Of a DNA stretch of 64,000 bases, positions 1 to 58,253 are shown one piece after another (positions within the stretch are counted from its first letter, which is position 1; each line of letters begins with the position of its first letter). The stretch comes from a phage, in sequence record PZ445498.1, one strand, 5' to 3'. Below the pieces are notes generated by a model. It searched no databases, was not told the origin of the DNA, and worked only from the letters and a program-made list of their open reading frames with translations. The position numbers were made by a program, and so were the translations under genes.

Positions 1-1317
1 ATGAAGGTCTCTAGAGATTATATTAACACCACAGATGTTATTGACTTTGGTATTGACAAACGATTTTTCCGTCTGCCAGTCTCTAGCATTCTAGCTCAAG
101 AGGGGATTACGCCTAACGCCCCTCAGGTTGCAATTATTAACGCGCTGGAAGATCCTAGACACCGTTTCGTAACTGCATGTGTATCACGTCGTGTAGGTAA
201 GTCGTTCATCGCATATACACTTGGGTTCTTAAAACTTCTGGAACCCAATGTGAAGGTGCTAGTAGTTGCACCTAACTACTCACTGGCTAACATTGGTTGG
301 TCACAGATTCGTGGTCTTATTAAAAAGTATGGATTACAGACTGAACGTGAGAACGCCAAAGATAAAGAGATTGAATTAGCGAATGGTTCACTCTTTAAAC
401 TGGCTTCCGCGGCGCAGGCTGACTCCGCGGTTGGTCGTTCATATGACTTCATCATTTTTGACGAAGCAGCGATTTCCGACGTTGGTGGTGCAGCTTTCGA
501 TATTCAGTTACGTCCTACCCTAGATAAGCCAAACTCTAAAGCTCTATTTATCTCTACTCCTCGTGGGGGTAACTGGTTCAAAGAGTTCTATGAGAAAGGA
601 TTTAACGAAACGCTACCTAATTGGGTATCTATTCATGGTACATATCGTGATAACCCACGTGCTGACCTGAACGATATCGAAGAAGCGCGTCGTACTGTTA
701 GTAAAAACTATTTCCGTCAAGAATATGAGGCTGACTTCTCCGTATTCGAAGGTCAGATCTTTGATACCTTCAATGCTATCGAGCACGTTAAAGACCTCAA
801 AGGTATGCGTCACTTCTTTAAAGATGATGAGGCTTTCGAAACATTACTTGGTATCGACGTTGGTTATCGTGACCCTACAGCAGTTCTTACTATCAAGTAT
901 CACTATGATACTGATGTTTATTACATACTAGAAGAGTATCAGCAGGCTGAAAAGACTACAGCCCAACACGCTGCTTATATCCAGCACTGCATAGATCGTT
1001 ATAATGTTGATCGTATATTTGTAGACTCCGCCGCTGCTCAGTTCCGTCAGGACTTAGCTTATGAACATGAAATCGCTTCTGCTCCTGCTAAGAAATCCGT
1101 CCTAGATGGTTTGGCATGCCTGCAAGCACTGTTCCAGCAAGGTAAGATCATCGTAGATGCTTCATGTACCTCATTGATCCACGCCTTAGCGAACTACAAG
1201 TGGGATTTCCAGGAAGGTGAAGAGAAATTATCACGTGAAAAACCACGTCATGATGCGAACTCTCACCTTTGTGACGCACTGCGTTATGGAATTTACTCAA
1301 TTTCCCGTGGGAAATAA
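1..1317 (+). CDS. terminase large subunit
   Basis: 438-aa ORF starting at the window edge; Walker A-like motif (VSRRVGKS) near N-terminus; sits directly upstream of the portal gene as in T5-like phages. Confidence 0.85.
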   Translation: MKVSRDYINTTDVIDFGIDKRFFRLPVSSILAQEGITPNAPQVAIINALEDPRHRFVTACVSRRVGKSFIAYTLGFLKLLEPNVKVLVVAPNYSLANIGWSQIRGLIKKYGLQTERENAKDKEIELANGSLFKLASAAQADSAVGRSYDFIIFDEAAISDVGGAAFDIQLRPTLDKPNSKALFISTPRGGNWFKEFYEKGFNETLPNWVSIHGTYRDNPRADLNDIEEARRTVSKNYFRQEYEADFSVFEGQIFDTFNAIEHVKDLKGMRHFFKDDEAFETLLGIDVGYRDPTAVLTIKYHYDTDVYYILEEYQQAEKTTAQHAAYIQHCIDRYNVDRIFVDSAAAQFRQDLAYEHEIASAPAKKSVLDGLACLQALFQQGKIIVDASCTSLIHALANYKWDFQEGEEKLSREKPRHDANSHLCDALRYGIYSISRGK

Positions 1318-1344
1318 ATAAGTATAGGATAGGATACTACTCAG

Positions 1345-1869
1345 TTGGTATCCCATTCCTGCATTTTAAAATCCCCTTTACAAATTCGACATGATTATGT
1401 ATACTATATTCATACAGTTGAGGAGAATACTGTGGCAGGAAATGTAAAATATAAACGTGATGCTATATCACTCATGCGAGACGGTATAAAAAGTCAATAT
1501 AAAAAAGCCGATCGCTGCGAAATCTGTGGTTGTGGTGAAGAATTAGAACTTCATCATTACCATACAGTGTCTCTACTAGTTAAAAAATTTGCTAAAGAAC
1601 TCCAATTGGATTTCACTGACGAAGAAATAGTCCTCTCAAATAGGACGGCATTCTATGAAAGATATAGGCATGAGCTAGTAGATGACACTGTTACCCTTTG
1701 TGTCCACCATCACCAACTATTACATAAGGTGTACACTAAAGAACCACCCCTTTTCTCTGCTAATAAGCAGAAGGTATGGGTTCTTAAACAAAAGGAAAAG
1801 CTACAGAATCCTCAAGAAAAGACACAAGTCAAGACTGAAACTAAATCAGGATTCGCAAGGTTCTTATAA
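1345..1869 (+). CDS. HNH endonuclease (free-standing, homing-type)
   Basis: Cys/His motifs CEICGCGEELELHHYH and CVHHHQLLH typical of HNH nucleases; alternative GTG start at 1432 has a better Shine-Dalgarno (GAGGAG). Confidence 0.7.
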   Translation: MVSHSCILKSPLQIRHDYVYYIHTVEENTVAGNVKYKRDAISLMRDGIKSQYKKADRCEICGCGEELELHHYHTVSLLVKKFAKELQLDFTDEEIVLSNRTAFYERYRHELVDDTVTLCVHHHQLLHKVYTKEPPLFSANKQKVWVLKQKEKLQNPQEKTQVKTETKSGFARFL

Positions 1870-3086
1870 TGGGTTTAAAAAGCTGGATTACTGAAAAGCT
1901 AAATCCGGGTCAACGTATTATAAGAGACATGGAACCAGTTAGTCATCGCACTAACCGTAAGCCATTTACCACTGGACAAGCCTACAGTAAGATTGAGATT
2001 CTCAACCGAACTGCTAACATGGTTATCGATAGTGCGGCGGAGTGTTCTTATACTGTCGGAGATAAATATAATATTGTCACGTACGCTAACGGCGTCAAGG
2101 CAAAGACTCTAGACACTCTCTTAAATGTACGACCTAATCCATTCATGGATATAAGCACATTCCGTAGACTTGTAGTCACTGATCTACTTTTTGAGGGTTG
2201 TGCATACATCTATTGGGATGGCACAGCACTTTACCATGTCCCTGCTGCACTAATGCAAGTAGAGGCAGATGCCAATAAGTTTATCAAAAAATTCATATTT
2301 AATAACCAGATAGACTATCGCGTAGATGAGATTATCTTTATAAAGGATAACAGTTACGTGTGTGGCACAAACTCCCAAATTTCTGGACAATCTCGTGTTG
2401 CTACAGTTATTGACTCTCTTGAGAAGCGTTCTAAAATGCTTAACTTTAAAGAGAAGTTCCTCGATAACGGCACTGTGATTGGTCTTATTCTTGAGACGGA
2501 TGAAATCCTGAACAAGAAATTGCGTGAGCGTAAACAAGAAGAATTACAACTCGATTATAATCCTAGTACGGGTCAGTCTACTGTCCTGATTCTAGATGGT
2601 GGTATGAAAGCAAAACCGTACTCCCAAATATCCTCTTTTAAAGATCTAGACTTCAAGGAAGATATCGAAGGATTTAATAAATCCATCTGTCTTGCCTTTG
2701 GTGTTCCGCAAGTGTTACTTGATGGTGGTAATAATGCTAACATTCGACCAAACATCGAATTGTTCTATTACATGACTATCATTCCTATGCTGAACAAGCT
2801 GACTAGTTCTCTTACTTTCTTCTTTGGCTACAAGGTTACTCCTAATACTAAGGAAGTGGCTGCACTGACGCCAGATAAAGAAGCTGAGGCTAAACATTTA
2901 ACCTCTTTGGTTAATAACGGTATCATGACTGGTAACGAAGCTCGTGAAGAGCTTAACCTTGAACCTTTAGATGATGAGCAGATGAATAAGATTCGTATTC
3001 CTGCTAACATTGCTGGTTCTGCAACAGGTGTATCTGGTCAAGAAGGTGGTAGACCGCAAGGCACTGCCGATGGGGATAAAGAATGA
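1869..3086 (+). CDS. portal protein (pb7-like)
   Basis: 405-aa ORF immediately after terminase and HNH genes; size and position match T5 portal; stop overlaps next start (ATGA). Confidence 0.8.
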   Translation: MGLKSWITEKLNPGQRIIRDMEPVSHRTNRKPFTTGQAYSKIEILNRTANMVIDSAAECSYTVGDKYNIVTYANGVKAKTLDTLLNVRPNPFMDISTFRRLVVTDLLFEGCAYIYWDGTALYHVPAALMQVEADANKFIKKFIFNNQIDYRVDEIIFIKDNSYVCGTNSQISGQSRVATVIDSLEKRSKMLNFKEKFLDNGTVIGLILETDEILNKKLRERKQEELQLDYNPSTGQSTVLILDGGMKAKPYSQISSFKDLDFKEDIEGFNKSICLAFGVPQVLLDGGNNANIRPNIELFYYMTIIPMLNKLTSSLTFFFGYKVTPNTKEVAALTPDKEAEAKHLTSLVNNGIMTGNEAREELNLEPLDDEQMNKIRIPANIAGSATGVSGQEGGRPQGTADGDKE

Positions 3087-3565
3087 TTGATTATGATGGT
3101 CTAAAGGCCATTTTTGGTGAAAAGCTGCCAGAATCTCATATCTTCTTTGCTACGGTTGCAGCACACAAGTTCGTTCCAAACTACGCTACTCTACGTAAAG
3201 AGTTTGGAATGACCACTGCACATACCAACCGCAAGGTTTGGAACAAGTTCAAAGAAGCATACGAAATTACTGCTCCGGTTGTTCCGGCACTAGCTTTCAC
3301 AAAGAATCTGGCTAAAACTCTAGCTGTTGATACTGGTGCAGCAATTAATCTGGGTGTAACAGTTACTGGTGGTACTGCACCATATACTTATGCTTGGACT
3401 AAAGACGGTTCTCCACTAAGTGGTGTTACTGGCCCTAATTTCAACAAAGCTACAGCTGCTGCAGAAGATGCTGGTACTTACAAAGTTGTTGTAACGGATA
3501 GTAAATCTACTTCCATTACTTCTAATGAGTGTGTAACAACTATCAACCCTGCGCCGGAGGCTTAA
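3083..3565 (+). CDS. capsid decoration protein with C-terminal Ig-like domain (pb10-like)
   Basis: 160 aa; C-terminal segment GVTVTGGTAPYTYAWTKDGSPLSGVTGPNF...AGTYKVVVTD has Ig-like signature; located between portal and protease. Confidence 0.65.
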   Translation: MIDYDGLKAIFGEKLPESHIFFATVAAHKFVPNYATLRKEFGMTTAHTNRKVWNKFKEAYEITAPVVPALAFTKNLAKTLAVDTGAAINLGVTVTGGTAPYTYAWTKDGSPLSGVTGPNFNKATAAAEDAGTYKVVVTDSKSTSITSNECVTTINPAPEA

Positions 3566-3568
3566 TAA

Positions 3569-4201
3569 ATGACAAATGCTGCTATTGACTATAACAAGTT
3601 AAAATCAGCACCGGTTCATTTAGACGCTTACATTAAGTCTATTGATAGCGAATCCAAAGAGGGTGTTATAAAAATCCGTGGATTCGCTAATACAATTAGT
3701 AAAGATCGCGCTGGTGACGTAATTCCTGCTTCGGCATGGAAAACGTCTAATGCACTTGCTAACTACATGAAAAACCCGATTATTCTTTTCGGCCACGACC
3801 ATCGTCGTCCAATCGGCAAGTGTATTGATCTTAACCCTACTGAAATGGGTCTCGAAATTGAATGCGAGATTTATGAAAGTTCTGATCCAGCTATCTTCTC
3901 ACTAATTAAAAACGGTGTACTGAAAACCTTCAGTATCGGATTCCGCTGCCTAGACGCAGAATGGGATGAAGCTACTGACATATTTATTATTAAAGATTTA
4001 GAACTATACGAAGTTTCGGTAGTCTCTGTACCTTGTAATCAGGACTCAACGTTCAACCTCGCTAAGAGTATGAATGGTCACGATTACACTGAATGGCGCA
4101 AATCTTTTACTGCAACAAGTTCTAAGGCTGTCCCAGCTCAAGAACGTAATCTTTCTGAACTAGAAAAACTTGCGATAGCTTTAGGCTACGTTAAAGAATA
4201 A
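3569..4201 (+). CDS. prohead protease (HK97-family, pb11-like)
   Basis: 210 aa; motif ILFGHDHRRPIGK resembles the HK97-type prohead protease catalytic region; directly upstream of major capsid gene. Confidence 0.7.
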   Translation: MTNAAIDYNKLKSAPVHLDAYIKSIDSESKEGVIKIRGFANTISKDRAGDVIPASAWKTSNALANYMKNPIILFGHDHRRPIGKCIDLNPTEMGLEIECEIYESSDPAIFSLIKNGVLKTFSIGFRCLDAEWDEATDIFIIKDLELYEVSVVSVPCNQDSTFNLAKSMNGHDYTEWRKSFTATSSKAVPAQERNLSELEKLAIALGYVKE

Positions 4202-48118: not shown

Positions 48119-49993
48119 TTATTTAGCTCTTACATCTGCATGCTTGATTCGTCCCATAACCTCATGCTGTTTACCTGGGTTAAATGGGCGTGCACCTGGA
48201 TTACCAAGGTACCCACAAACACGACGTGTTACCTCAAGAGTCTCAGGATCATGGTTGCCACAAATTGGGCATTTAAATCCATCTTCAGAAGCAATTGTTT
48301 CGCCTAAGAATCCACACTCACCACAAGAATCAACTGGAGTATTAATACCAAAGTAGTGAACTTTACTTGCAGCATAGTTAATTACCCATTCTAGGGCATC
48401 TGGGAATTTCTTCATGTCAGGTAATTCCACGTAGGAAATGCACCCACCAGAAGCAATAGGAGTAAAGTTAGACTCATAATCAAATTTCACATTTGGAGCA
48501 ACCTTACGTTCTACATCAAGGTGATGGGAGTTAGTGTAATATCCTTTAGCCAGAATATCCTCATGCTCTGGGAAGTACTCACGGTCTAGACGACAGAAGC
48601 GATCACACAGAGATTCAGATGGTGTAGCATACAGACTATAACCTAACTGAGTCTCTTCCTTCTTCTGATCAGCACGATCACGCATATATTGTAGCACACG
48701 TTGAACGAACTTGATACAAGACTCAGACATTGTATCTACATCTTTACCAAACATGAGCTGCAACATTTCGTGGCAACCAATATATCCTAGAGATACGGAA
48801 GCACGCTTGTAGAAATGATCAAATACATATTCATCTGGCCCCAGACGTAATCCAAAGGCTCCTGACATATAGAGGATGGGCGCAGCTTTAGCTTGAATGT
48901 ATTTTAAGCGATCAACCCTCCACTCCAATGCTTTTAACGCGGTATCCACACGCAGCTCAAGCAGATCGAAGAATAGATCAATATTTCCTTCCGCTTCGAT
49001 AGCGATTCGAGGAAGGTTTACGGAAACAACGCCTAAGTTGTTACGACCAGAAGTTTCACCATCTTCCGCAGCAGCCAGGAATGAACGACAGCCCATAGAG
49101 ACTTTGTAGTCTCCCGTAACTTCTACAACCTTATCATAACTGATGTAGTCAGGATACATACGTTCAGCAGTACATTTCATAGCTAACTTCTTGATATCAT
49201 AGTTAACATCACCAGGTTTCATGTTTACGCCATCACGCAAAACAAATACCAGTTTAGGGAAGATAGCTGTACGTTTATTGATACCCAAACCATCCATACG
49301 CACTTCTAGGATTGCTTTCTGTACAAGACGTGCTTCCCAAGAAGTTCCTAGACCAAACCCAAAGGTAATAAACGGACTTTGACCATTAGAGTTGAACATC
49401 GTATTGATTTCATACTCCAGGCCCTGACAGGCATCGTAAACTTCTTTCTCAGTCATTTCCGTAGCCATTACAGATGCTTTGGCTTCATCCTTAGTCCAAC
49501 GTTTTGCAAACGCATGATTCTTATCATAAGACTTACGAACATAAGGAGCCAGTACTTCATCTAATCGGTCTACAGAAGTACCACCATATTGATGGGAGCT
49601 AACCTGAGTAATAATCTGAGCTGTAATAGCAGCCGCAGTAGTAATGGAGTTTGGCGTACTGATTTCAGCATTACCAACCTTCATACCGTTTTTCAACATA
49701 TCTTCCAAAGCAACCAGGCAACAGTTAGTCATACCTAATGCAGCGTAATCAGCATCATGGAAGTGAATATCACCAATCATGTGAGCATTTCGAATCTGGA
49801 TTGGCATTTCTTCCAGAATCAGATATTTACTCAATTCCCCTGCAAGCATATCCCTTTGTGTAGGGAAACGTTCTGAGGGCTTATTGGCATTATTAAACAG
49901 CAGCTCTTCATCTGCTGAACCTTCGATAATTTCTTTGCAGTTTCGAATTAAGGACTGCATTCCTTTATATTTTAGTTCTTCATTGCGATTCAT
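48119..49993 (-). CDS. nrdD: anaerobic ribonucleoside-triphosphate reductase (class III)
   Basis: 624 aa; C-terminal glycyl-radical motif RVCGYLG preceded by a Cys cluster (CGECG...CPICG). Confidence 0.85.
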   Translation of the reverse strand: MNRNEELKYKGMQSLIRNCKEIIEGSADEELLFNNANKPSERFPTQRDMLAGELSKYLILEEMPIQIRNAHMIGDIHFHDADYAALGMTNCCLVALEDMLKNGMKVGNAEISTPNSITTAAAITAQIITQVSSHQYGGTSVDRLDEVLAPYVRKSYDKNHAFAKRWTKDEAKASVMATEMTEKEVYDACQGLEYEINTMFNSNGQSPFITFGFGLGTSWEARLVQKAILEVRMDGLGINKRTAIFPKLVFVLRDGVNMKPGDVNYDIKKLAMKCTAERMYPDYISYDKVVEVTGDYKVSMGCRSFLAAAEDGETSGRNNLGVVSVNLPRIAIEAEGNIDLFFDLLELRVDTALKALEWRVDRLKYIQAKAAPILYMSGAFGLRLGPDEYVFDHFYKRASVSLGYIGCHEMLQLMFGKDVDTMSESCIKFVQRVLQYMRDRADQKKEETQLGYSLYATPSESLCDRFCRLDREYFPEHEDILAKGYYTNSHHLDVERKVAPNVKFDYESNFTPIASGGCISYVELPDMKKFPDALEWVINYAASKVHYFGINTPVDSCGECGFLGETIASEDGFKCPICGNHDPETLEVTRRVCGYLGNPGARPFNPGKQHEVMGRIKHADVRAK

Positions 49994-50020: not shown

Positions 50021-50049
50021 CTATTATAACTCATTAGAAGGCGGATGTC
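50021..50049 (-). promoter_or_regulatory. consensus sigma70 promoter for nrdD
   Basis: Reverse complement TTGACA-N17-TATAAT; AGGAGG Shine-Dalgarno before the ATG. Confidence 0.7.
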
Positions 50050-50102
50050 AACAATATTTTACTATAAAGTTCTGTAACATGATCTGAGTCAAAAAATTTT
50101 AT

Positions 50103-50131
50103 TTGCCAACCTCTATTAAAAATAGTATAAT
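50103..50131 (+). promoter_or_regulatory. sigma70-type promoter (distal, divergent from nrdD)
   Basis: TTGCCA-N17-TATAAT. Confidence 0.5.
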
Positions 50132-51342: not shown

Positions 51343-51349
51343 GACAGAC

Positions 51350-51383
51350 GAGCCTGGGTATGAAAATATCCGGGCTCTTTTTA
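51350..51383 (+). terminator. intrinsic terminator
   Basis: GAGCCTGG...CCGGGCTC stem followed by TTTTT. Confidence 0.6.
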
Positions 51384-51398
51384 TCTGTAAAATTGTAC

Positions 51399-51427
51399 TT
51401 GCAAAATGACTCAAAACAAAGTAGAAT
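51399..51427 (+). promoter_or_regulatory. early promoter upstream of nrdA
   Basis: TTGCAA-N17-TAGAAT; the ORF-track start at 51406 falls inside this promoter. Confidence 0.55.
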
Positions 51428-51465
51428 ATCTCCTAAATCCTGATAACTACAAAAAGGAAAGCCAA

Positions 51466-53799
51466 ATGAGCCATCGTATAGAAAAAGTAATTAAACGTGA
51501 CGGTACTGTTCAGGACTTTGCTCCTGAAAAACTCAATGATTGGGCTGCATGGGCATGTAAAGATACTGACGTAAGTTGGTCTGCCGTAGTTATGGCTGCC
51601 CTGAAAAATCTACCCAAAGGTGTTGTAGACTCCGATACACTCCAAGATGTGTTAATTAAAGCCGCTGAAGGTCTTATAAAAGACAATCCAGCATATGATA
51701 CTGTAGCAAAGGAATTACGTCTTGCGCAGATGCGTAAACGCCTATATGATTCCTTCGAACCACCTTCTCTGCGTTTCTTCCACGATCATATGGTTCGTGT
51801 TGGCGCTTGGGAAGACATGAGTGCATGGATTAGCGATGATCAGTTTGATGCTCTGAATCAAGTTATTGATCATGATCGCGATCGTTTATTCACTAGTGGT
51901 GGACTGAAACAGTTCTTCGACAAGTATTCCCGTCGTAATATTGCAACTGGTGAAATTTATGAAACTCCGCAGTTTGCCTACATGGGTATGGCAATGGCGA
52001 TGTTATCTCAACCTAACTGGACAATTCTAGATGCAATCGACCTCTACAATGCAATGTCGCTCCACAAAATCAACGTTCCTACGCCGCCACTGGTTGGTCT
52101 GCGCTCTAGTGACCGTGGATTTGCTAGTTGCTGCCTCGTGGATTCCACTGACACGCTGGATTCAATCGACACAGCCGAGCACATCGTCTTCAAAATGGTC
52201 GCAGCCAGAGCGGGAATCGGGTATCATCTTGAAAGCCGATCAATTGCTGATCCGGTGCGAAATGGGGCATTCCCGCATTCCGGAAAACTGCCATATTATC
52301 GACACATTGACCGATCAGTAAAAGCTAACACTCAGCAAACCCGTGGCGGTTCTGCTACTGTGTCTTATCCATACTTCGATCCTGAAATCATTCAGTTGAT
52401 GCAGGTTAAGCAGCAACGTGCTACAGACGAGAATAAAATCGATAAGATGGATTACTCTCTGAGCTTTAACAACCTTCTATTAAAACGTTACCTGAAAAAC
52501 GAAGATATTACGCTAATGTCCTACTTCTACGCACCAGAAGTTCATGAAGCGTTTTATGGCGAAGATGAGGCTAAGTTTGAAGAAATCTACGTGGCAGCGG
52601 AGAAACGTGTGGCTTCTCTTACAAAGATCGACCACGAAGGAAAAACAATTCCAGCAGCTCCTAGAATCTCTGCAAAAGAAATCCTAGATACTTGGTTACG
52701 TATCCGTATGGAAACAGGGCGTATGTATGCTCATCACATTGGTGAATCTAACCGTCATGGTAACTTCCTTGACCCGATTCGTATGACCAACCTATGTGTT
52801 GAAATTACTCAGCCAACCAGGCCATTCCATCACATTACGGAGCTGTATAAGACCCAAGATCAGTTAGATGATATGCGTCCAGAAGATATTGGCGAAGTAT
52901 CTCTGTGTAACTTAGGTGGAGTTGTACTAGGACGCATGGAATCTCTGGCTGAATGGGAAAAAACTTGCTACATTCTTCTGAAATTCGTTGATACCATCAT
53001 TGAAATTCAGGACTATCCGTTCCCTACTATGGAATACACGGCTAAGAAGCGTCGTAACGTAGGTATTGGTCTGATGAACGCAGCAGGTGCAATGGCAGCA
53101 GAAGGTCTGGCTTACGAAGGTGAAGAAGCCCGTAACTGGATTCACCGTGAAGCTGAGAAACTTTCTTACTTCCTGCATAAAGCCTCTGTACGTCTGGCTA
53201 AAGAACAAGGTGCATGTGACTGGTTTAATCGTACTAAACCATCCAAGGGGACTCTGGTAATCGACACGTATAAGAAAACTGTTGATGAACTGGTAACTGT
53301 AGATCTAGAAATGGATTGGGAATCTCTGCGTGCAGATATTCTGAAATATGGTATGCGTAACTCTGTTCTGACTGCTCAGATGCCCGGTGAAAGTTCCTCT
53401 GTACTGCTAGGTGTTACTAACTCTATCGAACCGCCTCGTAAGATTGTATCTATCAAGGGTAGTGCAGTGAATAAAGTAATTGCAATTGCTCCAGGTGCAA
53501 CTGATTGGGATACATTAATGAGTTATAAACTGGCTTATGATGTAGATCGTATCGAGTGGGTCAAATGGGTAGCAACCATGCAGAAATTCTTCAGTCAGTC
53601 TATAAGTACGAATATGTACTATGACTACACCAAGTTTGAGAATGAAATTATTCCTGGCCCAGTAGTAGTTCGTGATTTCATGACTGCTGTTAAGTACGGT
53701 TGGAAAACTTTCTACTATGCAAACTTTAACACCGAGAATGGTGGTGGTGCAGGGGAAGAAACTGCTGCTGGATGCGCATCTGGTGGTTGTCAATTATAA
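51466..53799 (+). CDS. nrdA: ribonucleoside-diphosphate reductase, large subunit (class Ia)
   Basis: ATP-cone-like N-terminus, catalytic Cys-containing core, C-terminal Cys pair (CASGGCQL); start at ATG 51466 (MSHRIEKV) after AAGGAAA. Confidence 0.9.
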   Translation: MSHRIEKVIKRDGTVQDFAPEKLNDWAAWACKDTDVSWSAVVMAALKNLPKGVVDSDTLQDVLIKAAEGLIKDNPAYDTVAKELRLAQMRKRLYDSFEPPSLRFFHDHMVRVGAWEDMSAWISDDQFDALNQVIDHDRDRLFTSGGLKQFFDKYSRRNIATGEIYETPQFAYMGMAMAMLSQPNWTILDAIDLYNAMSLHKINVPTPPLVGLRSSDRGFASCCLVDSTDTLDSIDTAEHIVFKMVAARAGIGYHLESRSIADPVRNGAFPHSGKLPYYRHIDRSVKANTQQTRGGSATVSYPYFDPEIIQLMQVKQQRATDENKIDKMDYSLSFNNLLLKRYLKNEDITLMSYFYAPEVHEAFYGEDEAKFEEIYVAAEKRVASLTKIDHEGKTIPAAPRISAKEILDTWLRIRMETGRMYAHHIGESNRHGNFLDPIRMTNLCVEITQPTRPFHHITELYKTQDQLDDMRPEDIGEVSLCNLGGVVLGRMESLAEWEKTCYILLKFVDTIIEIQDYPFPTMEYTAKKRRNVGIGLMNAAGAMAAEGLAYEGEEARNWIHREAEKLSYFLHKASVRLAKEQGACDWFNRTKPSKGTLVIDTYKKTVDELVTVDLEMDWESLRADILKYGMRNSVLTAQMPGESSSVLLGVTNSIEPPRKIVSIKGSAVNKVIAIAPGATDWDTLMSYKLAYDVDRIEWVKWVATMQKFFSQSISTNMYYDYTKFENEIIPGPVVVRDFMTAVKYGWKTFYYANFNTENGGGAGEETAAGCASGGCQL

Positions 53800-53808
53800 T
53801 AAAAACAA

Positions 53809-53836
53809 GGAGATCTTCGGGTCTCCTTTTTCTTTG
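53809..53836 (+). terminator. intrinsic terminator after nrdA
   Basis: GGAGATC-TTCG-GGTCTCC hairpin followed by TTTTTCTTT. Confidence 0.8.
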
Positions 53837-53845
53837 AAATTTTAC

Positions 53846-53874
53846 TTGCTAATCGCTACCAGATTTGCTATAAT
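53846..53874 (+). promoter_or_regulatory. early promoter driving the HNH endonuclease gene
   Basis: TTGCTA-N17-TATAAT. Confidence 0.65.
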
Positions 53875-53898
53875 ATCTCTATATTAAGGAGATATACT

Positions 53899-54417
53899 GT
53901 GAAACCTCAACTAACAAAAGAATTTCTAGAGAAATATCTAGAACTCAGAGAAGATACTCTCTATTGGAAGCCAAGAGAGACTAATAAAGGTGGATTTAAT
54001 ACTAGATTTGCTGGAAAACCTGTAGGAGCCGTCAATGGAAATGGCTACCTATGCTTCCGACTTAACGTGGAAGGTTATAGATGGGAATTAAGAAATCATG
54101 TAGTAATCTTCTGTCTCTATTATGGATATTACCCAACTAAGACAGTAGACCATAAAGATACAAATAAACTTAATAACCATCCTTTAAATCTACGAGAATC
54201 AACCGATGCTGGTAATGCCCAAAATAGGGGAGCCGGTAAAAACAATACCCATGGACATAAAAACCTAGAGCCTCTTAGTTCAGGAAACTGGAGGGTTAGG
54301 ATAACACACAACGGTACTGTTTACAGATCTTCCGCAATGCCTCTAGAAAAAGCTCTAGAACATAGAGATATTAAACTTAAAGAATTTCATGGCGAATACG
54401 CTAATAATGGAGAATAA
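53899..54417 (+). CDS. HNH homing endonuclease inserted between nrdA and nrdB
   Basis: 172 aa, GTG start after AGGAG; motif GYRWELRNHVVIFCLYYGYYPTKTVDHKDTNKLNNHPLNLR typical of HNH_3-type homing endonucleases. Confidence 0.7.
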   Translation: MKPQLTKEFLEKYLELREDTLYWKPRETNKGGFNTRFAGKPVGAVNGNGYLCFRLNVEGYRWELRNHVVIFCLYYGYYPTKTVDHKDTNKLNNHPLNLRESTDAGNAQNRGAGKNNTHGHKNLEPLSSGNWRVRITHNGTVYRSSAMPLEKALEHRDIKLKEFHGEYANNGE

Positions 54418-54420
54418 TTA

Positions 54421-55566
54421 ATGACAACCTTACTAAATCTGAACTGGAATCCTGATTCTGAAGAGCTATTTCTCGGAGATGCCCTGGGAGTAGCAGACTA
54501 TGTTCGTGTTGCTCATCCAGAGCTAGAACGACTCGCACTATTACAGAGGAGCCAGTTTTGGACTGAAACTGAAATCAGTCTAGAAAGTGACAAAAAGCAA
54601 TGGCCTAATCTTCCAAGAGAAATACAAGAAATCACTCTGCTGAACTTAGCTTGGCAGGTTCAAACAGATTCTTTCATTAGTCGTGCTCCTGAGGCAGCTA
54701 TTATGCCACTTGTAAGCCGTCCTGAATTGGAAGGTATGCTCAAGCAGTGGAGCTACTTCGAAGATCTGCATAGCCGTGCATATAGTAACATTATTCGTAA
54801 CGTTCTGACTGATCCAGCAGAATTTATTGATTCTGTAACTAAAAACCAAGAAGCATTTGCACGTATCGCAGATTCTGTTGAACTGTTTGATGAATTGTAT
54901 CTGTTAGGCCAGTATTTCCTTGCAGTACGTGATCATCGTGGTGATAATACTTATCCAGAAACTGAGTTCCCTGAAGTTAAACGTGAAACTCAGGCTAAAC
55001 TGTTAGACGCTTACTTTGCAATCTACGGTCTGGAAGCAATGCAGTTCTACGCATCCTTTGCATGTACCTTTGCTCTAGCAGAGAACGATATTCTGCAAGG
55101 TATTGCTAAGAACCTGCAATTAATCGCTAAAGATGAAGCTCTACATACTCAAATGTCTAAAGCTATCATCCAGATTATGTTCCAGCAGTTTGATAAAGAT
55201 CTGGTAGATGAAGCATTAGCTAAAGCACCAACACAACTCCTAAAAACTCTGAAAACTGAGATTGAATGGGGTCACTTTATCTTTAAAGGCCGTAGTCTGA
55301 TTGGTTTGAACGCAGAACTGCTTGAAGAATACCTTTACTTTGTAGGACGTAACGCATTTATGCACATTGGTGTAGAATGGCCAAGCCACTTACCTGTAAT
55401 TACTAAGAACCCTATTCCGTGGATTATGAACTGGCTGGATACTACTTCCTTACAGCCTGCCCCACAAGAAATCCAGATTGGTGCAGCATATCGTGTGGGT
55501 CAGGTAACTGAAACTTCTGCTGATACCCTGAAAGATCTGGGTAACGAATTTGAGGGCATGTTCTAA
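54421..55566 (+). CDS. nrdB: ribonucleoside-diphosphate reductase, small subunit
   Basis: 381 aa; di-iron ligand motifs (E..H) and FYASF radical-site region. Confidence 0.85.
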   Translation: MTTLLNLNWNPDSEELFLGDALGVADYVRVAHPELERLALLQRSQFWTETEISLESDKKQWPNLPREIQEITLLNLAWQVQTDSFISRAPEAAIMPLVSRPELEGMLKQWSYFEDLHSRAYSNIIRNVLTDPAEFIDSVTKNQEAFARIADSVELFDELYLLGQYFLAVRDHRGDNTYPETEFPEVKRETQAKLLDAYFAIYGLEAMQFYASFACTFALAENDILQGIAKNLQLIAKDEALHTQMSKAIIQIMFQQFDKDLVDEALAKAPTQLLKTLKTEIEWGHFIFKGRSLIGLNAELLEEYLYFVGRNAFMHIGVEWPSHLPVITKNPIPWIMNWLDTTSLQPAPQEIQIGAAYRVGQVTETSADTLKDLGNEFEGMF

Positions 55567-56096: not shown

Positions 56097-56947
56097 AGCA
56101 ATATATTGAAACTGGAAAACGTATTCTTGAAGAGGGTGTATGGGTAACGAATCCTAGAACAGGGGTTCGTTGCCTAACCATTATTGATGCAGACTTTACC
56201 TTTAACGTAGGAGCAGGAGAACTGCCGCTAGTAACTACTCGTAAAGCATTTGCTAAACAAGCAATAATGGAAATGATCGGATATCTCCGTGGGTACGACT
56301 CAGCAGCACAATTCCGCGCTATTGGTGTTAATACATGGAATGCTAATGCAAATGAAAATATTGCCTGGCTAGGTAATCCATTCCGTAAAGGCGAGGATGA
56401 TATGGGACGAGTTTATGGTGTTCAAGGACGTCATTGGACTAATTCTGATGGTATGGTATTTGATCAGTTAGCCAAAGTCTATCATAATTTGAAAAGAGGG
56501 ATTGACGATCGTGGAGAAATTTTAACTTTTTGGAACCCTGGGGAATTTCGTAAAGGATGCCTACGTCCATGTATGCATACCCATCAATTCTCTATTTTAG
56601 GTGATACACTATACCTAAACTCTTTCCAGAGGTCTAATGATTTCTTGCTGGGCCAAGTATTTAATATGGTGCAATGCTATGCACTTCTAGCTATTATGGC
56701 ACAGATTACAGGTCTTAAGCCAGGTATTGCTCGTCAAAAGATTATTAATCTTCATATCTATGAAGATCAGTATAATGTTCTGATGGAGCACAAGCAATTC
56801 GATCGTGAACCTTTTGCACCTCCTACTTTAGAAATCAATCCAAATATTAGAACTTTGGATGATGTATTAACGTGGGTAAGTAAGGATGATTTTACTGTTC
56901 GTGGCTATGAACACCATCCTGCTATTGCATATCCATTTACGGTGTAA
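56093..56947 (+). CDS. td: thymidylate synthase
   Basis: 284 aa; catalytic-Cys region [11 protein letters not shown] and downstream [14 protein letters not shown] pattern resembling ThyA. Confidence 0.8.
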
Positions 56948-56950
56948 CAT

Positions 56951-57304
56951 ATGTTAATTATACTATTATTTGTCATATTCTTTCTAAAACATTTTATGGC
57001 CGATTATCCACTCCAAACACCATATATGCTAAGAAAGACGCATAAAATAGGGTGGAAACTTCCATTATTAACCCATTCGCTAGTACATGCTGGATTAACA
57101 TTTGCAATTCTAATCCTATTCACATCACCAGGAATGTCTATAGCTTTAGCTATTATGGAATTAATTCTACACTTTATTATAGATTATTGGAAAGCACAAC
57201 GCTGTAAATACGCTATAAGCGATGCTAAGTTTTGGATAGCTTTAGGATTTGATCAGTTACTACATTATCTGACATACGCCCTAATAATCTTGATTATAAT
57301 CTAA
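56951..57304 (+). CDS. integral membrane protein (hypothetical)
   Basis: 117 aa with 3-4 hydrophobic helices. Confidence 0.45.
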   Translation: MLIILLFVIFFLKHFMADYPLQTPYMLRKTHKIGWKLPLLTHSLVHAGLTFAILILFTSPGMSIALAIMELILHFIIDYWKAQRCKYAISDAKFWIALGFDQLLHYLTYALIILIII

Positions 57305-57310
57305 TTCAAA

Positions 57311-57335
57311 TAGCCCTTCGGGGCTATTATATTTA
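57311..57335 (+). terminator. intrinsic terminator
   Basis: AGCCC-TTCG-GGGCT hairpin followed by ATTATATTT. Confidence 0.6.
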
Positions 57336-57343
57336 AATTTCAT

Positions 57344-57372
57344 TTGCTTACTGAGTGAAATTCAAATATAAT
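57344..57372 (+). promoter_or_regulatory. early promoter
   Basis: TTGCTT-N17-TATAAT. Confidence 0.65.
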
Positions 57373-57402
57373 ATACTTCTAATTTGACAGAAGGATTTAA
57401 TA

Positions 57403-57981
57403 ATGACAGCCATAGTAGCATTTAAATATAAAGATAAAGTATACTTAGCTGGTGATCGTATGGGTTCTAATGGCTATACGAAACTGCTGGTTAAAAATCC
57501 GAAAGTATTCAAAATCTCTGATGATTTGTACTTCGGATACACTAGTTCCTTCTACATGGGACAATTACTAGAGCATAGCTTTACTGTACCACCACGTTTA
57601 GCAGATATTTCTGATGATAAATATTTATACACGGAAATAGTACCTAAATTACGTGATATGTTTAACCAGAAAGATTTTGGCGAAAAGAAAAATGAAAAAT
57701 ATGCTGAACCTAATCTGGGACAATTTATTATGCTCTACAAAGGAAGAATCTTTATTTTCCAATCTAATGCTTCTATTCTAGAAGTTGAATATGCCGGTGT
57801 AGGCTGTGGAGGAGAAGATGTACTTTCCAGTATTCGTACAGGTTTAGCTATTGCGGATTGTCGAGCCACAGATTTAGATGTAGATGATATATTTGAAATC
57901 ATTGATCTGGCTTTTACGCATTGTGCAGATTATATGTGTGGTGTATCTTCTCAACATGATGTTTTAGTAATTGGAGAATAA
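57403..57981 (+). CDS. HslV/proteasome-beta-like (Ntn-hydrolase) peptidase homolog
   Basis: 192 aa; N-terminal MTAIVAFKYKDKVYLAGDRMGSNG parallels HslV [20 protein letters not shown] (Thr right after Met); later GVGCGG parallels HslV GSGG. Confidence 0.5.
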   Translation: MTAIVAFKYKDKVYLAGDRMGSNGYTKLLVKNPKVFKISDDLYFGYTSSFYMGQLLEHSFTVPPRLADISDDKYLYTEIVPKLRDMFNQKDFGEKKNEKYAEPNLGQFIMLYKGRIFIFQSNASILEVEYAGVGCGGEDVLSSIRTGLAIADCRATDLDVDDIFEIIDLAFTHCADYMCGVSSQHDVLVIGE

Positions 57982-57983
57982 AT

Positions 57984-58253
57984 ATGTCTATTCTTTTATC
58001 TGCTCTAGAAGCAAAACAAAATACTATTGCTAGCATTAAAAAGGAAGTAATTGACCTAGAATCACTTATTGCCGTAGAGATTGACAAAGCTATTAAAGAT
58101 AAAGAATTTAATTGTCACATCCAGGGATTAACTGAATACTCAGAAAACGCTAGAAATAGCGTCATGCAAAAACTTAGCAAACTAGGTTATGTTGTGGAAG
58201 CTAAGTATGAGCAACGTGAAGGTTTTTGGCTTGAAATTGATTGGAGCAAATAA
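57984..58253 (+). CDS. hypothetical protein
   Basis: 89-aa ORF. Confidence 0.4.
   Translation: MSILLSALEAKQNTIASIKKEVIDLESLIAVEIDKAIKDKEFNCHIQGLTEYSENARNSVMQKLSKLGYVVEAKYEQREGFWLEIDWSK

What the first reader, a model, noticed from the sequence alone, without database searches (positions are those of the whole stretch)
53846..54417. HNH homing endonuclease with its own promoter inserted between nrdA and nrdB
A 172-aa HNH_3-type endonuclease (DHKDTNKLNNHPLNLR) sits precisely between the two ribonucleotide reductase subunit genes, behind a TTGCTA-N17-TATAAT promoter and after the nrdA terminator. Intergenic nrd insertions are classic homing sites in T-even phages. A second free-standing HNH gene (1345-1869) sits between the terminase and portal genes. 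Both are likely mobile and variably present among relatives.
Basis: partly seen in the sequence, partly recalled or inferred. Interest (0 to 1): 0.45.

Follow-up and report, generated by a model that had tools for sequence, protein, structure and literature searches.

The report
Homing endonuclease gene between nrdA and nrdB
This is an ordinary selfish "homing" nuclease gene that has copied itself into the gap between two nucleotide-synthesis genes of a T5-like phage; it is already annotated in sister phages and borrows the neighbouring gene's promoter rather than carrying its own.

Summary
ORF 53899-54417 (+, GTG start, 172 aa) is a real HNH_3 endonuclease gene. It lies between nrdA and nrdB of an Epseptimavirus (T5-like) phage, after a terminator and a TTGCTA-N17-TATAAT promoter.

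The homing-endonuclease reading is supported:
- The site is polymorphic. Of 27 sampled T5-like genomes, 15 are empty and the others carry one of five HNH lineages that share only 31-44% identity.
- Only 34 of about 530 phage records carry this allele.
- A near-isogenic phage, KKP_3822, differs from the window only by a swapped endonuclease gene and its immediate flanks.
- An exact 886-bp tract (the gene plus 260 bp of nrdB) is shared with phages whose backbones are 94-98% identical.
- dN/dS is 0.01-0.04.
- The model shows an I-HmuI-like HNH core with a C-terminal AP2-fold domain.

Two claims fail:
- The promoter is not the gene's own. Every empty site has the same promoter 31 nt upstream of nrdB, so the gene sits in the nrdB 5' leader and its 3' end supplies the nrdB ribosome-binding site.
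- The "second HNH" (1345-1869) is the conserved T5 sciA nicking-endonuclease ortholog, present in essentially all relatives, and is not mobile.

The identical gene is already in 18 public records, several of them annotated "homing endonuclease". Interest is low.

The parts
51406..53799 (+). nrdA, class Ia ribonucleotide reductase large subunit. Its last ~100 bp (53700-53794) carry the haplotype otherwise seen in carriers of the Eps7/F-TflVI-type endonuclease.
   Evidence: Pfam ATP-cone, Ribonuc_red_lgN and Ribonuc_red_lgC. 53700-53799 is 100% identical to phage 1-23 but 70-84% identical to other type-A carriers.
53807..53836 (+). Intrinsic terminator after nrdA (AAGGAGATC-TTCG-GGTCTCCTT followed by a T-run). 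It is also present in empty-site genomes.
53846..53874 (+). Sigma-70-type promoter TTGCTA-N17-(TG)nTATAAT. This is the resident nrdB promoter, not part of the insertion.
   Evidence: The identical element lies 31 nt upstream of the nrdB ATG in all 17 empty-site loci.
53873..53895 (+). Weak hairpin (AUAUCUCU / GGAGAUAU) that would sequester the endonuclease SD only in read-through transcripts from nrdA. Its 5' arm lies upstream of the expected start site of the adjacent promoter. This is an inferred feature.
   Evidence: dG -7.5 kcal/mol, z -1.85, so not significant on its own. Comparable stems occur in diverged type-A (EH7) and most type-VIII leaders; the DT571/2 type-VIII leader did not fold it.
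53899..54417 (+). Free-standing homing endonuclease gene ('type A'), 172 aa, GTG start. N-terminal I-HmuI-like beta domain (aa 1-65). HNH/beta-beta-alpha-Me core (aa ~66-110) with D84, H85, N97 and N106. C-terminal AP2-fold DNA-binding domain (aa ~120-168).
   Evidence: Pfam HNH_3. PDB profile hit to I-HmuI 1U3E at 1.1e-6. AF2 model with pLDDT 95.9. Foldseek hits to I-HmuI and to AP2 domains 7ET4, 7ET5 and 5WX9. dN/dS 0.01-0.04.
54409..54412 (+). GGAG Shine-Dalgarno for nrdB, embedded in the last codons of the endonuclease gene (AAT GGA GAA TAA tta ATG). The native nrdB leader and SD of empty sites are absent.
54421..55566 (+). nrdB, ribonucleotide reductase small subunit, co-transcribed downstream of the endonuclease gene.
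   Evidence: Pfam Ribonuc_red_sm.
53795..54680 (+). Tract with no substitutions against SLAM_phiST45 and IrmaTschudi (one T-run indel at 53826 against IrmaTschudi); it extends to 54767 against BSP22A. Backbones are 94-98% identical elsewhere. Interpreted as the transferred or co-converted segment.
   Evidence: Mismatch maps.
54452..54651 (+). Ten nrdB nucleotide positions (54452, 54454, 54458, 54489, 54586, 54587, 54624, 54627, 54639, 54651) fixed in all type-A carriers (and in phage 1-23) and absent from 31 other genomes. Candidate region for the target site and for self-immunity.
1432..1869 (+). sciA ortholog (T5-type nicking site-specific endonuclease, CxxC/HH zinc-HNH-like). Conserved core gene between terL and portal. 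The ORF is listed from TTG 1345, but the homolog starts at the GTG equivalent to 1432.

Best explanation
The ORF encodes a functional free-standing homing endonuclease of the HNH_3 + AP2 type. It has an I-HmuI-like N-terminal domain and catalytic core, followed by a C-terminal AP2-fold DNA-binding domain. It resides in the nrdA-nrdB spacer of a T5-like (Epseptimavirus) phage.

Shown:
- The gene sits immediately downstream of the -10 box of the resident nrdB promoter.
- It has replaced the native 31-nt nrdB leader.
- Its own 3' end supplies the nrdB Shine-Dalgarno, with the stop codon 3 nt before the nrdB ATG. It is therefore co-transcribed with nrdB from the nrdB promoter.
- The site is polymorphic, the allele is rare, and the allele is embedded in a sharply bounded identical tract inside otherwise diverged backbones.

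Inferred mechanism: during mixed infection the enzyme recognises the endonuclease-less (or differently occupied) allele of a co-infecting relative. It most likely acts within the first ~230 bp of nrdB or the nrdB leader. It probably nicks one strand, as I-HmuI and T4 MobE do. Recombinational repair from the carrier genome then copies the gene plus about 0.1-0.3 kb of flanking sequence into the recipient. The carrier's own nrdB 5' polymorphisms would protect it from self-cleavage. The weak GTG start, and possibly an SD-sequestering hairpin in read-through transcripts, would keep expression low.
For: Identity and fold:
- HNH_3 match above the Pfam cut-off.
- Profile hit to I-HmuI at E 1.1e-6, with D84/H85/N97/N106 aligned to its DH...N...N motif. 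These residues are invariant or >=90% conserved in 95 homologs.
- AF2 model at pLDDT 95.9 with a beta-beta-alpha element at 82-109.
- Foldseek top hit I-HmuI, plus plant AP2 domains at 1.7-2.8 A for the C-terminal domain.
- 27 of 120 homologs carry precomputed Pfam AP2 + HNH_3.

Mobility signature:
- 15 of 27 unbiased IMG/VR T5-like loci are empty. The remaining 12 carry five HNH lineages, including one copy of this allele.
- In the phage collection, this allele is in 34 records, the T5 F-TflVIII type in 75 and the Eps7 type in 43, out of ~531 records with the nrd region.
- KKP_3822 is 98-100% identical to the window over 12 kb except 53700-54750, where it carries the F-TflVIII-type gene.
- There are no substitutions (a single T-run indel at 53826 in IrmaTschudi) across 886-973 bp around the gene against phages that are 94-98% identical elsewhere.
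- The gene is 95.6-97.3% identical in TrudiGerster and ZJUN2, where backbones are 87% and 77% identical.
- Ten nrdB positions are fixed in carriers.
- A 74%-identical homolog occupies the same nrdA|nrdB position in more distant metagenomic phages.

Function maintained: dN/dS 0.01-0.04.

Resident promoter.

Precedent: T4 MobE lies between nrdA and nrdB, depends on upstream transcription, and nicks the 5' region of T2 nrdB (PMC2790892). Homing endonuclease genes are the main source of differences among T5-like genomes (PMC10644984).
Against: - No biochemical or genetic evidence exists for this allele. Cleavage or nicking, the target site and the direction of transfer are all inferred.
- Identical tracts and mosaic flanks could arise from ordinary homologous recombination between co-infecting phages without nuclease stimulation.
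- Strong purifying selection at dS~1 is somewhat unexpected under a simple invade-then-decay homing cycle.
- Phage 1-23 carries the type-A-linked nrdB haplotype without the type-A gene. The ten positions are therefore linked markers, not proven immunity determinants.
- The hairpin is not statistically significant.
- Pfam AP2 does not hit this protein by sequence, even at E<=10.
Confidence: 0.85

Rival explanations
1. The gene is a stably inherited, domesticated protein, for example an AP2-type DNA-binding regulator of the nrd operon or a nuclease used in phage DNA metabolism. On this view its patchy distribution reflects ordinary recombination and gene loss, not active homing.
For: - Very low dN/dS over large synonymous divergence.
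- Tight integration into nrdB expression, with a shared promoter and supply of the nrdB SD.
- A 74% homolog at the same site in distant relatives shows a long association with the locus.
Against: - Over half of relatives do without any gene at this site and keep an intact nrdB leader.
- Five lineages sharing only 31-44% identity occupy the same 100-bp spacer. This is hard to explain by a host function.
- The catalytic D-H...N...N residues are intact.
- Sharply bounded identical tracts and a near-isogenic gene swap are the classic homing and co-conversion signature.
Confidence: 0.07
2. The endonuclease is primarily a weapon in phage-phage competition (marker exclusion). It damages co-infecting relatives' essential nrdB region and so favours the carrier genome as a whole. 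Gene conversion would be a by-product.
For: - Sustained purifying selection.
- Several incompatible endonuclease lineages with lineage-linked flanking haplotypes at one essential locus.
- The BF23 paper notes that homing nucleases dominate the differences among T5-like phages.
Against: This reading is mechanistically the same as homing and cannot be told apart from it in silico. No data exist on burst composition in mixed infections.
Confidence: 0.06
3. The gene is an inactive relic. It would be a once-mobile endonuclease that no longer cleaves and persists only because removing it would disrupt nrdB translation signals.
For: - The insertion replaced the native nrdB leader and SD, so simple deletion would be costly.
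- T4 offers a precedent in the defunct I-TevIII, which persists near mobE.
Against: - The ORF is intact in all eight carriers analysed, with dN/dS 0.01-0.04 rather than ~1.
- Catalytic residues are conserved.
- Eighteen records have 100% identical copies in diverged backbones, which indicates recent spread.
Confidence: 0.02

Closest known systems
The same gene in sister Epseptimaviruses (BSP22A, SH9, S116, SE24, IrmaTschudi/Bas28, SLAM_phiST45 and others)
   Same: The 519 nt are 100% identical in 18 GenBank/RefSeq records and at least 99% identical in 30. The gene is always between nrdA and nrdB. Several records annotate it 'homing endonuclease', 'putative homing endonuclease' or 'H-N-H-endonuclease'.
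   Different: The last ~100 bp of the window's nrdA carry a different haplotype, that of Eps7-type carriers. No listed record exceeds 97.8% identity over the 4.2-kb nrd region. None of these copies has been characterised experimentally, as far as the searched literature shows.
Phage T5 F-TflVIII ('nicking homing endonuclease', as annotated in T5, DT57C and DT571/2)
   Same: - Same insertion point, directly after TATAATAT of the nrdB promoter.
- Same size (171 vs 172 aa).
- Same HNH_3 plus C-terminal architecture.
- Non-ATG start codon and a similar SD-containing leader.
   Different: - Only 31-32% amino-acid identity, so a separate lineage.
- It keeps a recognisable remnant of the native nrdB leader, whereas the window allele replaces it entirely.
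- The 'nicking' label is a GenBank annotation. No paper on F-TflVIII was found.
Phage T4 MobE
   Same: - A free-standing HNH homing endonuclease gene between nrdA and nrdB.
- It has no promoter of its own and is expressed from neighbouring transcription.
- It nicks the 5' region of nrdB of the endonuclease-less phage T2.
- It co-converts flanking markers (PMC2790892).
   Different: - No detectable sequence similarity.
- 141 aa and a different HNH subfamily, with no AP2-fold domain.
- MobE is co-transcribed with the upstream nrdA. The window gene uses the downstream gene's promoter and sits in its leader.
I-HmuI (Bacillus phage SPO1, PDB 1U3E)
   Same: It is the closest solved structure. The N-terminal beta-sheet DNA-binding region and the HNH core align (profile E 1.1e-6; Foldseek E 2.4e-4 over 168 columns) and the DH...N...N motif is conserved. 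I-HmuI is a strand-specific nicking enzyme (from established knowledge).
   Different: - I-HmuI is intron-encoded and ends in a helix-turn-helix domain.
- The window protein is free-standing and ends in an AP2-fold domain.
- About 21% identity.
Eps7 F-TflVI-type endonuclease at the same spacer
   Same: An HNH_3 endonuclease between nrdA and nrdB in 43 phage records. It is 37% identical over 141 aa.
   Different: It is inserted upstream of the nrdB promoter, where it replaces the nrdA terminator with its own and leaves the native promoter and leader intact.

Membership tests
HNH / His-Me finger endonucleases (Pfam HNH_3, PF13392) | Significant match to the family profile above the curated threshold | tested here: met
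   41.4 bits against a cut-off of 24.8, E 1.1e-10, residues 67-107. PHROG_99 E 2e-40.
HNH / His-Me finger endonucleases (Pfam HNH_3, PF13392) | Beta-beta-alpha-metal fold with the catalytic His and the Asn/Asp metal ligands | tested here: met
   The AF2 model (pLDDT 95.9) has strands 82-85 and 98-101 and helix 103-109. D84, H85, N97 and N106 align with the DH...N...N motif of I-HmuI. H85 and N97 are invariant, and D84 and N106 are >=90% conserved, in 95 homologs. Foldseek hits I-HmuI and I-PpoI.
Free-standing homing endonuclease genes | Presence/absence polymorphism at a fixed genomic site among close relatives | tested here: met
   15 of 27 sampled T5-like loci are empty. The allele is in 34 of ~531 records and always lies between nrdA and nrdB.
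Free-standing homing endonuclease genes | Co-conversion of flanking sequence with the gene | tested here: met
   An 886-973-bp substitution-free tract sits inside backbones that are 94-98% identical. The near-isogenic KKP_3822 differs only in 53700-54750. This is a sequence signature, not an observed transfer event.
Free-standing homing endonuclease genes | Target site in the gene-less allele, and a resistant variant in the carrier | tested here: inconclusive
   Ten carrier-specific nrdB positions at 54452-54651, and the native leader replaced. Phage 1-23 shares the haplotype without the gene, and no cleavage site is known.
Free-standing homing endonuclease genes | Site-specific endonuclease or nickase activity and super-Mendelian inheritance in crosses | not testable with these tools
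   Requires biochemistry and phage crosses.
HNH-AP2 homing endonucleases | AP2 DNA-binding domain C-terminal to the HNH domain | tested here: met
   By fold: Foldseek matches to Arabidopsis TEM1 AP2 (7ET4/7ET5; probability 0.99-1.00, rmsd 1.7-2.8 A over 54-62 columns) and to AtERF96 (5WX9). 27 of 120 homologs carry Pfam AP2 + HNH_3. By sequence: Pfam AP2 does not hit this protein itself, even at E<=10.
T4 MobE family | Sequence homology to MobE | tested here: not met
   BLASTP against T4 MobE gave a best score of 18.5 bits, E 0.04 for the pairwise comparison. This is an analog, not a member.
T5 F-TflVIII orthologs | Close sequence relationship to F-TflVIII at the same site | tested here: not met
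   Same insertion point but 31-32% identity, whereas true F-TflVIII copies are 94-100% identical to each other.
Mobile homing endonuclease (claim made for ORF 1345-1869) | Presence/absence polymorphism among relatives | tested here: not met
   517 records cover at least 80% of the terL-ORF-portal query. The ORF is the 81%-identical ortholog of Gostya9 sciA, annotated 'nicking site-specific endonuclease'.

The most novel reading that the evidence does not exclude
The nrdA-nrdB spacer of T5-like phages may be an arena of endonuclease turnover. At least five HNH-AP2 lineages, sharing only 31-44% identity, use two insertion registers within about 100 bp. They appear to replace one another at already-occupied sites: the window carries the nrdA-3' haplotype of one lineage next to the gene and nrdB-5' haplotype of another. 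Three of the lineages have captured the nrdB promoter and now supply the nrdB translation signals. Simple loss would then be costly, a form of regulatory entrenchment. That could explain the unusually strong, long-lasting purifying selection, instead of the expected invade-and-decay cycle.
Probability: 0.3. Interest if true: 0.4.

Novelty: already known. Interest (0 to 1): 0.2.

Why it matters
It matters little as a discovery. Homing endonuclease genes at ribonucleotide reductase loci are textbook cases (T4 mobE, I-TevIII, Aeh1 mobE), and this exact gene is already deposited and annotated in sister phages.

It has practical value in three ways:
- It corrects the annotation logic. The promoter belongs to nrdB, and the terL-adjacent "HNH" is the conserved sciA nickase.
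- It flags this locus as a recombination boundary when comparing or engineering T5-like therapeutic phages.
- It offers a convenient natural system for studying competition between homing endonucleases. The site has empty alleles, five endonuclease lineages and near-isogenic pairs, and some carriers are in the BASEL collection (IrmaTschudi, TrudiGerster).

Tried and rejected
- Single-sequence AlphaFold gave a useless model (pLDDT 39.6). It was replaced by a prediction using a 95-sequence alignment.
- Pfam at E<=10 did not detect AP2 in this protein or in the four other spacer lineages. A PDB sequence-profile search found only I-HmuI. The AP2 assignment therefore rests on fold comparison and on homologs' Pfam annotation.
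- The first protein search with the single sequence returned only 3 hits, so a profile search was needed.
- The SD-sequestering hairpin is not significant (z -1.85; 10 of 200 shuffles fold as well). I keep it only as a weak inference.
- I looked for carrier-specific fixed differences in the nrdA 3' end for types A, VI and VIII, and in nrdB for type VIII. None was found. Only type A (together with phage 1-23) has fixed nrdB differences.
- An HMM search for paralogs of the gene across all ORFs of the window found none.
- Homology to T4 MobE was tested and rejected.
- A literature search for 'F-TflVIII' returned no paper. The 'nicking' label for the T5 allele is therefore a database annotation only.
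- I considered that the promoter was brought in by the element. This is rejected because it is present, identical, in all empty sites.
Full report
**Context.** The window comes from a T5-like phage of the family Demerecviridae, genus Epseptimavirus. The 4.2-kb nrdA-nrdB stretch matches 531 phage records. The best are Salmonella phages SLAM_phiST45, SE19 and SE24 and Citrobacter phage YZU-L1, at 97-98% identity. No listed record is identical. The local gene order is nrdD (-), phoH-like, a small ORF, nrdA, the finding, nrdB, frd and thymidylate synthase.

**Observation check.**
- ORF 53899-54417 is on the + strand, starts with GTG, encodes 172 aa and contains VDHKDTNKLNNHPLNLRE.
- It matches Pfam HNH_3 above the curated cut-off (E 1.1e-10) and PHROG_99 'HNH endonuclease' (E 2e-40).
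- Upstream lie the nrdA stop codon (53797-53799), an intrinsic terminator (stem 53807-53828 plus a T-run), a TTGCTA-N17-TATAAT promoter with a TG extended -10 (53846-53874), and an AAGGAG Shine-Dalgarno 7 nt before the GTG.
- The stop codon (54415-54417) is 3 nt before the nrdB ATG (54421).
- The ORF is under strong purifying selection. dN/dS is 0.01-0.04 against three diverged copies, with dS up to 1.06. It is a real, functional gene.

**What the protein is.**
- A profile built from nine spacer-type endonucleases hits only I-HmuI (PDB 1U3E) among solved structures, at E 1.1e-6. The hit covers the N-terminal beta region and the HNH core. D84, H85, N97 and N106 align with the DH...N...N motif of I-HmuI.
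- In a 95-sequence alignment of homologs, H85 and N97 are invariant, and D84 and N106 are at least 90% conserved.
- An AlphaFold model built on that alignment is confident (pLDDT 95.9, pTM 0.86). It shows a beta-beta-alpha element at residues 82-109 and a C-terminal three-strand-plus-helix domain at 123-167.
- Foldseek against the PDB returns I-HmuI first (E 2.4e-4), then I-PpoI. For the C-terminal domain it returns plant AP2 domains: TEM1 (7ET4/7ET5, rmsd 1.7-2.8 A) and AtERF96 (5WX9).
- Pfam AP2 does not hit this protein by sequence. However, 27 of 120 homologs carry precomputed AP2 + HNH_3 annotations.
- The architecture is therefore the known HNH-AP2 homing-endonuclease type, with an I-HmuI-like front end.
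- It has no detectable similarity to T4 MobE.

I applied it in four ways.
1. *Unbiased sample.* I fetched 27 T5-like genomes from IMG/VR using NrdB as the query. Of these, 15 have an empty spacer, 5 carry the T5 F-TflVIII type, 2 the Eps7 F-TflVI type, 2 a 78%-identical relative of the Eps7 type, 2 a fourth type ('D'), and 1 the window's type ('A'). All five lineages are HNH_3 proteins of 160-172 aa that share only 31-44% identity.
2. *Phage collection.* Type A is in 34 records, one copy each. Eighteen copies are 100% identical and 30 are at least 99% identical. The F-TflVIII type is in 75 records and the Eps7 type in 43, out of ~531 records with the nrd region. Every type-A copy lies between nrdA and nrdB (35 records cover at least 80% of the nrdA-gene-nrdB query).
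3. *Near-isogenic swap.* Salmonella phage KKP_3822 is 98-100% identical to the window across 12 kb, except 53700-54750. There it carries the F-TflVIII-type gene (48-58% nucleotide identity) with diverged immediate flanks.
4. *Transferred tract.* The window has no substitutions against SLAM_phiST45 or IrmaTschudi from 53795 to 54680 (886 bp; one T-run indel at 53826 against IrmaTschudi), and none against BSP22A to 54767. Their backbones are 94-98% identical elsewhere. At that divergence, 18-50 mismatches would be expected in the tract.

Two further observations fit. In TrudiGerster and ZJUN2 the gene is 95.6-97.3% identical while the backbones are 87% and 77% identical. A 74%-identical homolog occupies the same nrdA|nrdB position in more distant metagenomic phages, so the lineage is site-faithful.

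Together these are the standard in-silico signatures of intronless homing with co-conversion.

**A mosaic detail.** The left edge of the identical tract is sharp, at 53794/53795, in the last codons of nrdA. To its left (53700-53794) the window is 70-84% identical to the other type-A carriers but 100% identical to phage 1-23, which carries the Eps7-type gene. Conversely, phage 1-23 shares the window's nrdB-5' haplotype. The locus therefore looks like the product of one endonuclease lineage replacing another at an already-occupied site.

**The promoter claim is wrong.**
- All 17 empty-site loci contain the same terminator and the same TTGCTA-N17-TATAAT promoter. It is followed by a 31-nt leader (ATTCCTGAAATAGTGAGAAAGAGGAAAATCA) and the nrdB ATG. 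The promoter is therefore the resident nrdB promoter.
- Types A, VIII and D are all inserted directly after TATAATAT, at or just before the expected transcription start.
- Type A replaces the whole native leader and ends ...AAT GGA GAA TAA tta ATG. Its last codons thus provide the GGAG Shine-Dalgarno for nrdB.
- Type D overlaps the nrdB ATG with its own stop codon.
- Type VIII keeps a remnant of the native leader.
- The Eps7 type and its relative use a different register. They sit between the nrdA stop and the promoter, replace the terminator with their own, and leave the promoter and leader intact.
- The gene is thus co-transcribed with nrdB from the nrdB promoter. This parallels the promoterless T4 mobE (PMC2790892), except that MobE uses upstream nrdA transcription.

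**Expression control (inferred).**
- The GTG start (TTG in the T5 type) suggests weak translation.
- A hairpin at 53873-53895 pairs AUAUCUCU with GGAGAUAU and would occlude the SD.
- Its 5' arm lies upstream of the expected start site of the adjacent promoter. It could therefore form only in read-through transcripts from nrdA.
- It recurs in the diverged EH7 copy and, as a 6-bp stem, in most F-TflVIII leaders; the DT571/2 F-TflVIII leader did not fold it.
- It is thermodynamically weak and not significant (dG -7.5, z -1.85). I report it only as a possibility.

**Likely target (inferred).**
- Ten nrdB positions between 54452 and 54651 are fixed in all eight type-A carriers (and in phage 1-23) and absent from 31 other genomes. 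They persist even in ZJUN2, whose nrdB 5' end is otherwise diverged.
- They change NrdB residues 10-15 (NPDSEE against DHTN(A/K/P)D) and residues 21, 24, 56 and 80.
- T4 MobE nicks nt 122-126 of T2 nrdB, and its recombination point maps to the nrdB 5' end.
- By analogy, the type-A target most likely lies in the nrdB leader or the first ~230 bp of nrdB, and the carrier polymorphisms confer self-immunity.
- I-HmuI and MobE are both nickases (MobE; I-HmuI from established knowledge), and the T5 allele is annotated 'nicking'. A strand-specific nick converted to a break at replication is therefore the most likely chemistry.
- None of this is shown.

**The second gene.**
- ORF 1345-1869 lies between terL (1-1317) and portal (1869-3086).
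- It has a CxxC...HH...CxxHH zinc-HNH-like pattern. Its hits are PHROG_3497 (unknown function, 3.7e-68) and a weak HNH PHROG (2e-5). It has no Pfam hit.
- It is 81% identical to Gostya9 sciA, annotated 'nicking site-specific endonuclease'. The Gostya9 start corresponds to the GTG at 1432.
- 517 phage records cover at least 80% of the terL-ORF-portal query, and many annotate the ORF as a nicking endonuclease.
- The sci genes are the late-region genes held responsible for the characteristic single-strand interruptions of T5 DNA (PMC3517423). Terminase-adjacent HNH proteins are a widespread conserved class (abstract of PMC3592412).
Some relatives do carry extra DNA at this junction (spans of 2.2-2.5 kb against 1.8 kb, with annotated 'endonuclease' or 'HNH endonuclease'). 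Those are additional insertions that the window lacks.

**Comparison and novelty.**
- The closest known entities are the identical gene in sister Epseptimaviruses (several already annotated as homing endonuclease), T5 F-TflVIII (same insertion point, different lineage), T4 MobE (functional analog, not a homolog) and I-HmuI (structural relative).
- The published view is that homing endonuclease genes are the main source of differences among T5-like genomes (PMC10644984).
- The finding is therefore already known in kind and in sequence.
- The modest additions here are the resident-promoter correction, the five-lineage and two-register census of the spacer, and the evidence for lineage replacement.

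**Verdict.**
- It is an ordinary, previously annotated free-standing HNH-AP2 homing endonuclease. Confidence in that reading is 0.85.
- Interest is 0.2.

Noticed in passing
window 1345-1869 (probable true start 1432): The terL-portal ORF is the ortholog of T5-group sciA, annotated 'nicking site-specific endonuclease', and is conserved in essentially all T5-like phages. It has a CxxC/HH/CxxHH zinc-HNH-like motif but no Pfam hit.
   Followed up: yes
L009 (KKP_3822) 3498-3986; the equivalent window position ~51343-51405 is empty: The near-isogenic phage KKP_3822 carries a further 162-aa HNH_3 endonuclease gene immediately upstream of nrdA, which the window lacks. A similar 162-aa HNH_3 gene sits upstream of nrdA in metagenomic contigs L041-L043. 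The nrd operon is a multi-site endonuclease hotspot.
   Followed up: partly
L007 (ZJUN2) 1808-2671 and L008 (EH7) 1919-2587; absent from the window next to nrdD (48119-49993): Two type-A carriers have a GIY-YIG-family or 'putative endonuclease' gene abutting nrdD. This is another variably present nuclease in the same neighbourhood.
   Followed up: no
L004 (vB_SenS_SB6) 956-1282 and 1254-1736: There is a partial tandem duplication of the Eps7-type endonuclease gene. A truncated 109-aa N-terminal copy is followed by the intact 161-aa gene.
   Followed up: partly
L035 (IMGVR_UViG_2974662754): The Eps7-related endonuclease is C-terminally truncated and the first ~18 codons of nrdB are out of frame or contain stops. 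The cause could be a sequencing error or real damage at the homing site.
   Followed up: no
L041-L043, gene 688-3924: In metagenomic T5-like contigs that carry the 74% homolog, nrdA encodes 1078 aa instead of 797. About 300 aa are inserted and split the Ribonuc_red_lgC barrel at about profile position 72/73. This could be an intein, but no intein Pfam domain was found at E<=0.001.
   Followed up: partly
L029/L030, start of the type-D endonuclease: The type-D gene's ATG lies only 6 nt after the TATAAT of the nrdB promoter (TATAATATCTATATG). This implies a leaderless or nearly leaderless mRNA. Its stop codon overlaps the nrdB ATG (AAATGA).
   Followed up: no
window ~56800-58000 (ORFs 56951-57304 and 57403-57981): This segment downstream of thymidylate synthase is present in KKP_3822 and IrmaTschudi. 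It is wholly or partly missing or replaced in SLAM_phiST45, BSP22A, 1-23, ZJUN2, EH7 and (from ~57400) TrudiGerster. It is another indel polymorphism of unknown nature.
   Followed up: no
terL-sciA junction in relatives (one search hits H174, H184-H186, H188-H190, H195): Several relatives have 0.15-0.75 kb of extra DNA between terL and portal, some of it annotated 'endonuclease' or 'HNH endonuclease'. True insertions therefore do occur at this junction, but the window has none.
   Followed up: no
window 50023-50131: Back-to-back near-consensus sigma-70 promoters lie in the nrdD/phoH divergent intergenic region: TTGACA-17-TATAAT on the - strand and TTGCCA-17-TATAAT on the + strand.
   Followed up: no
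L002 (DT571/2) 980-1210, - strand: GenBank annotates an antisense 'putative H-N-H-endonuclease P-TflVIII' ORF inside F-TflVIII. BSP22A likewise annotates a 93-nt antisense 'H-N-H-endonuclease' inside the type-A gene instead of the real 519-nt ORF. These look like legacy mis-annotations.
   Followed up: no
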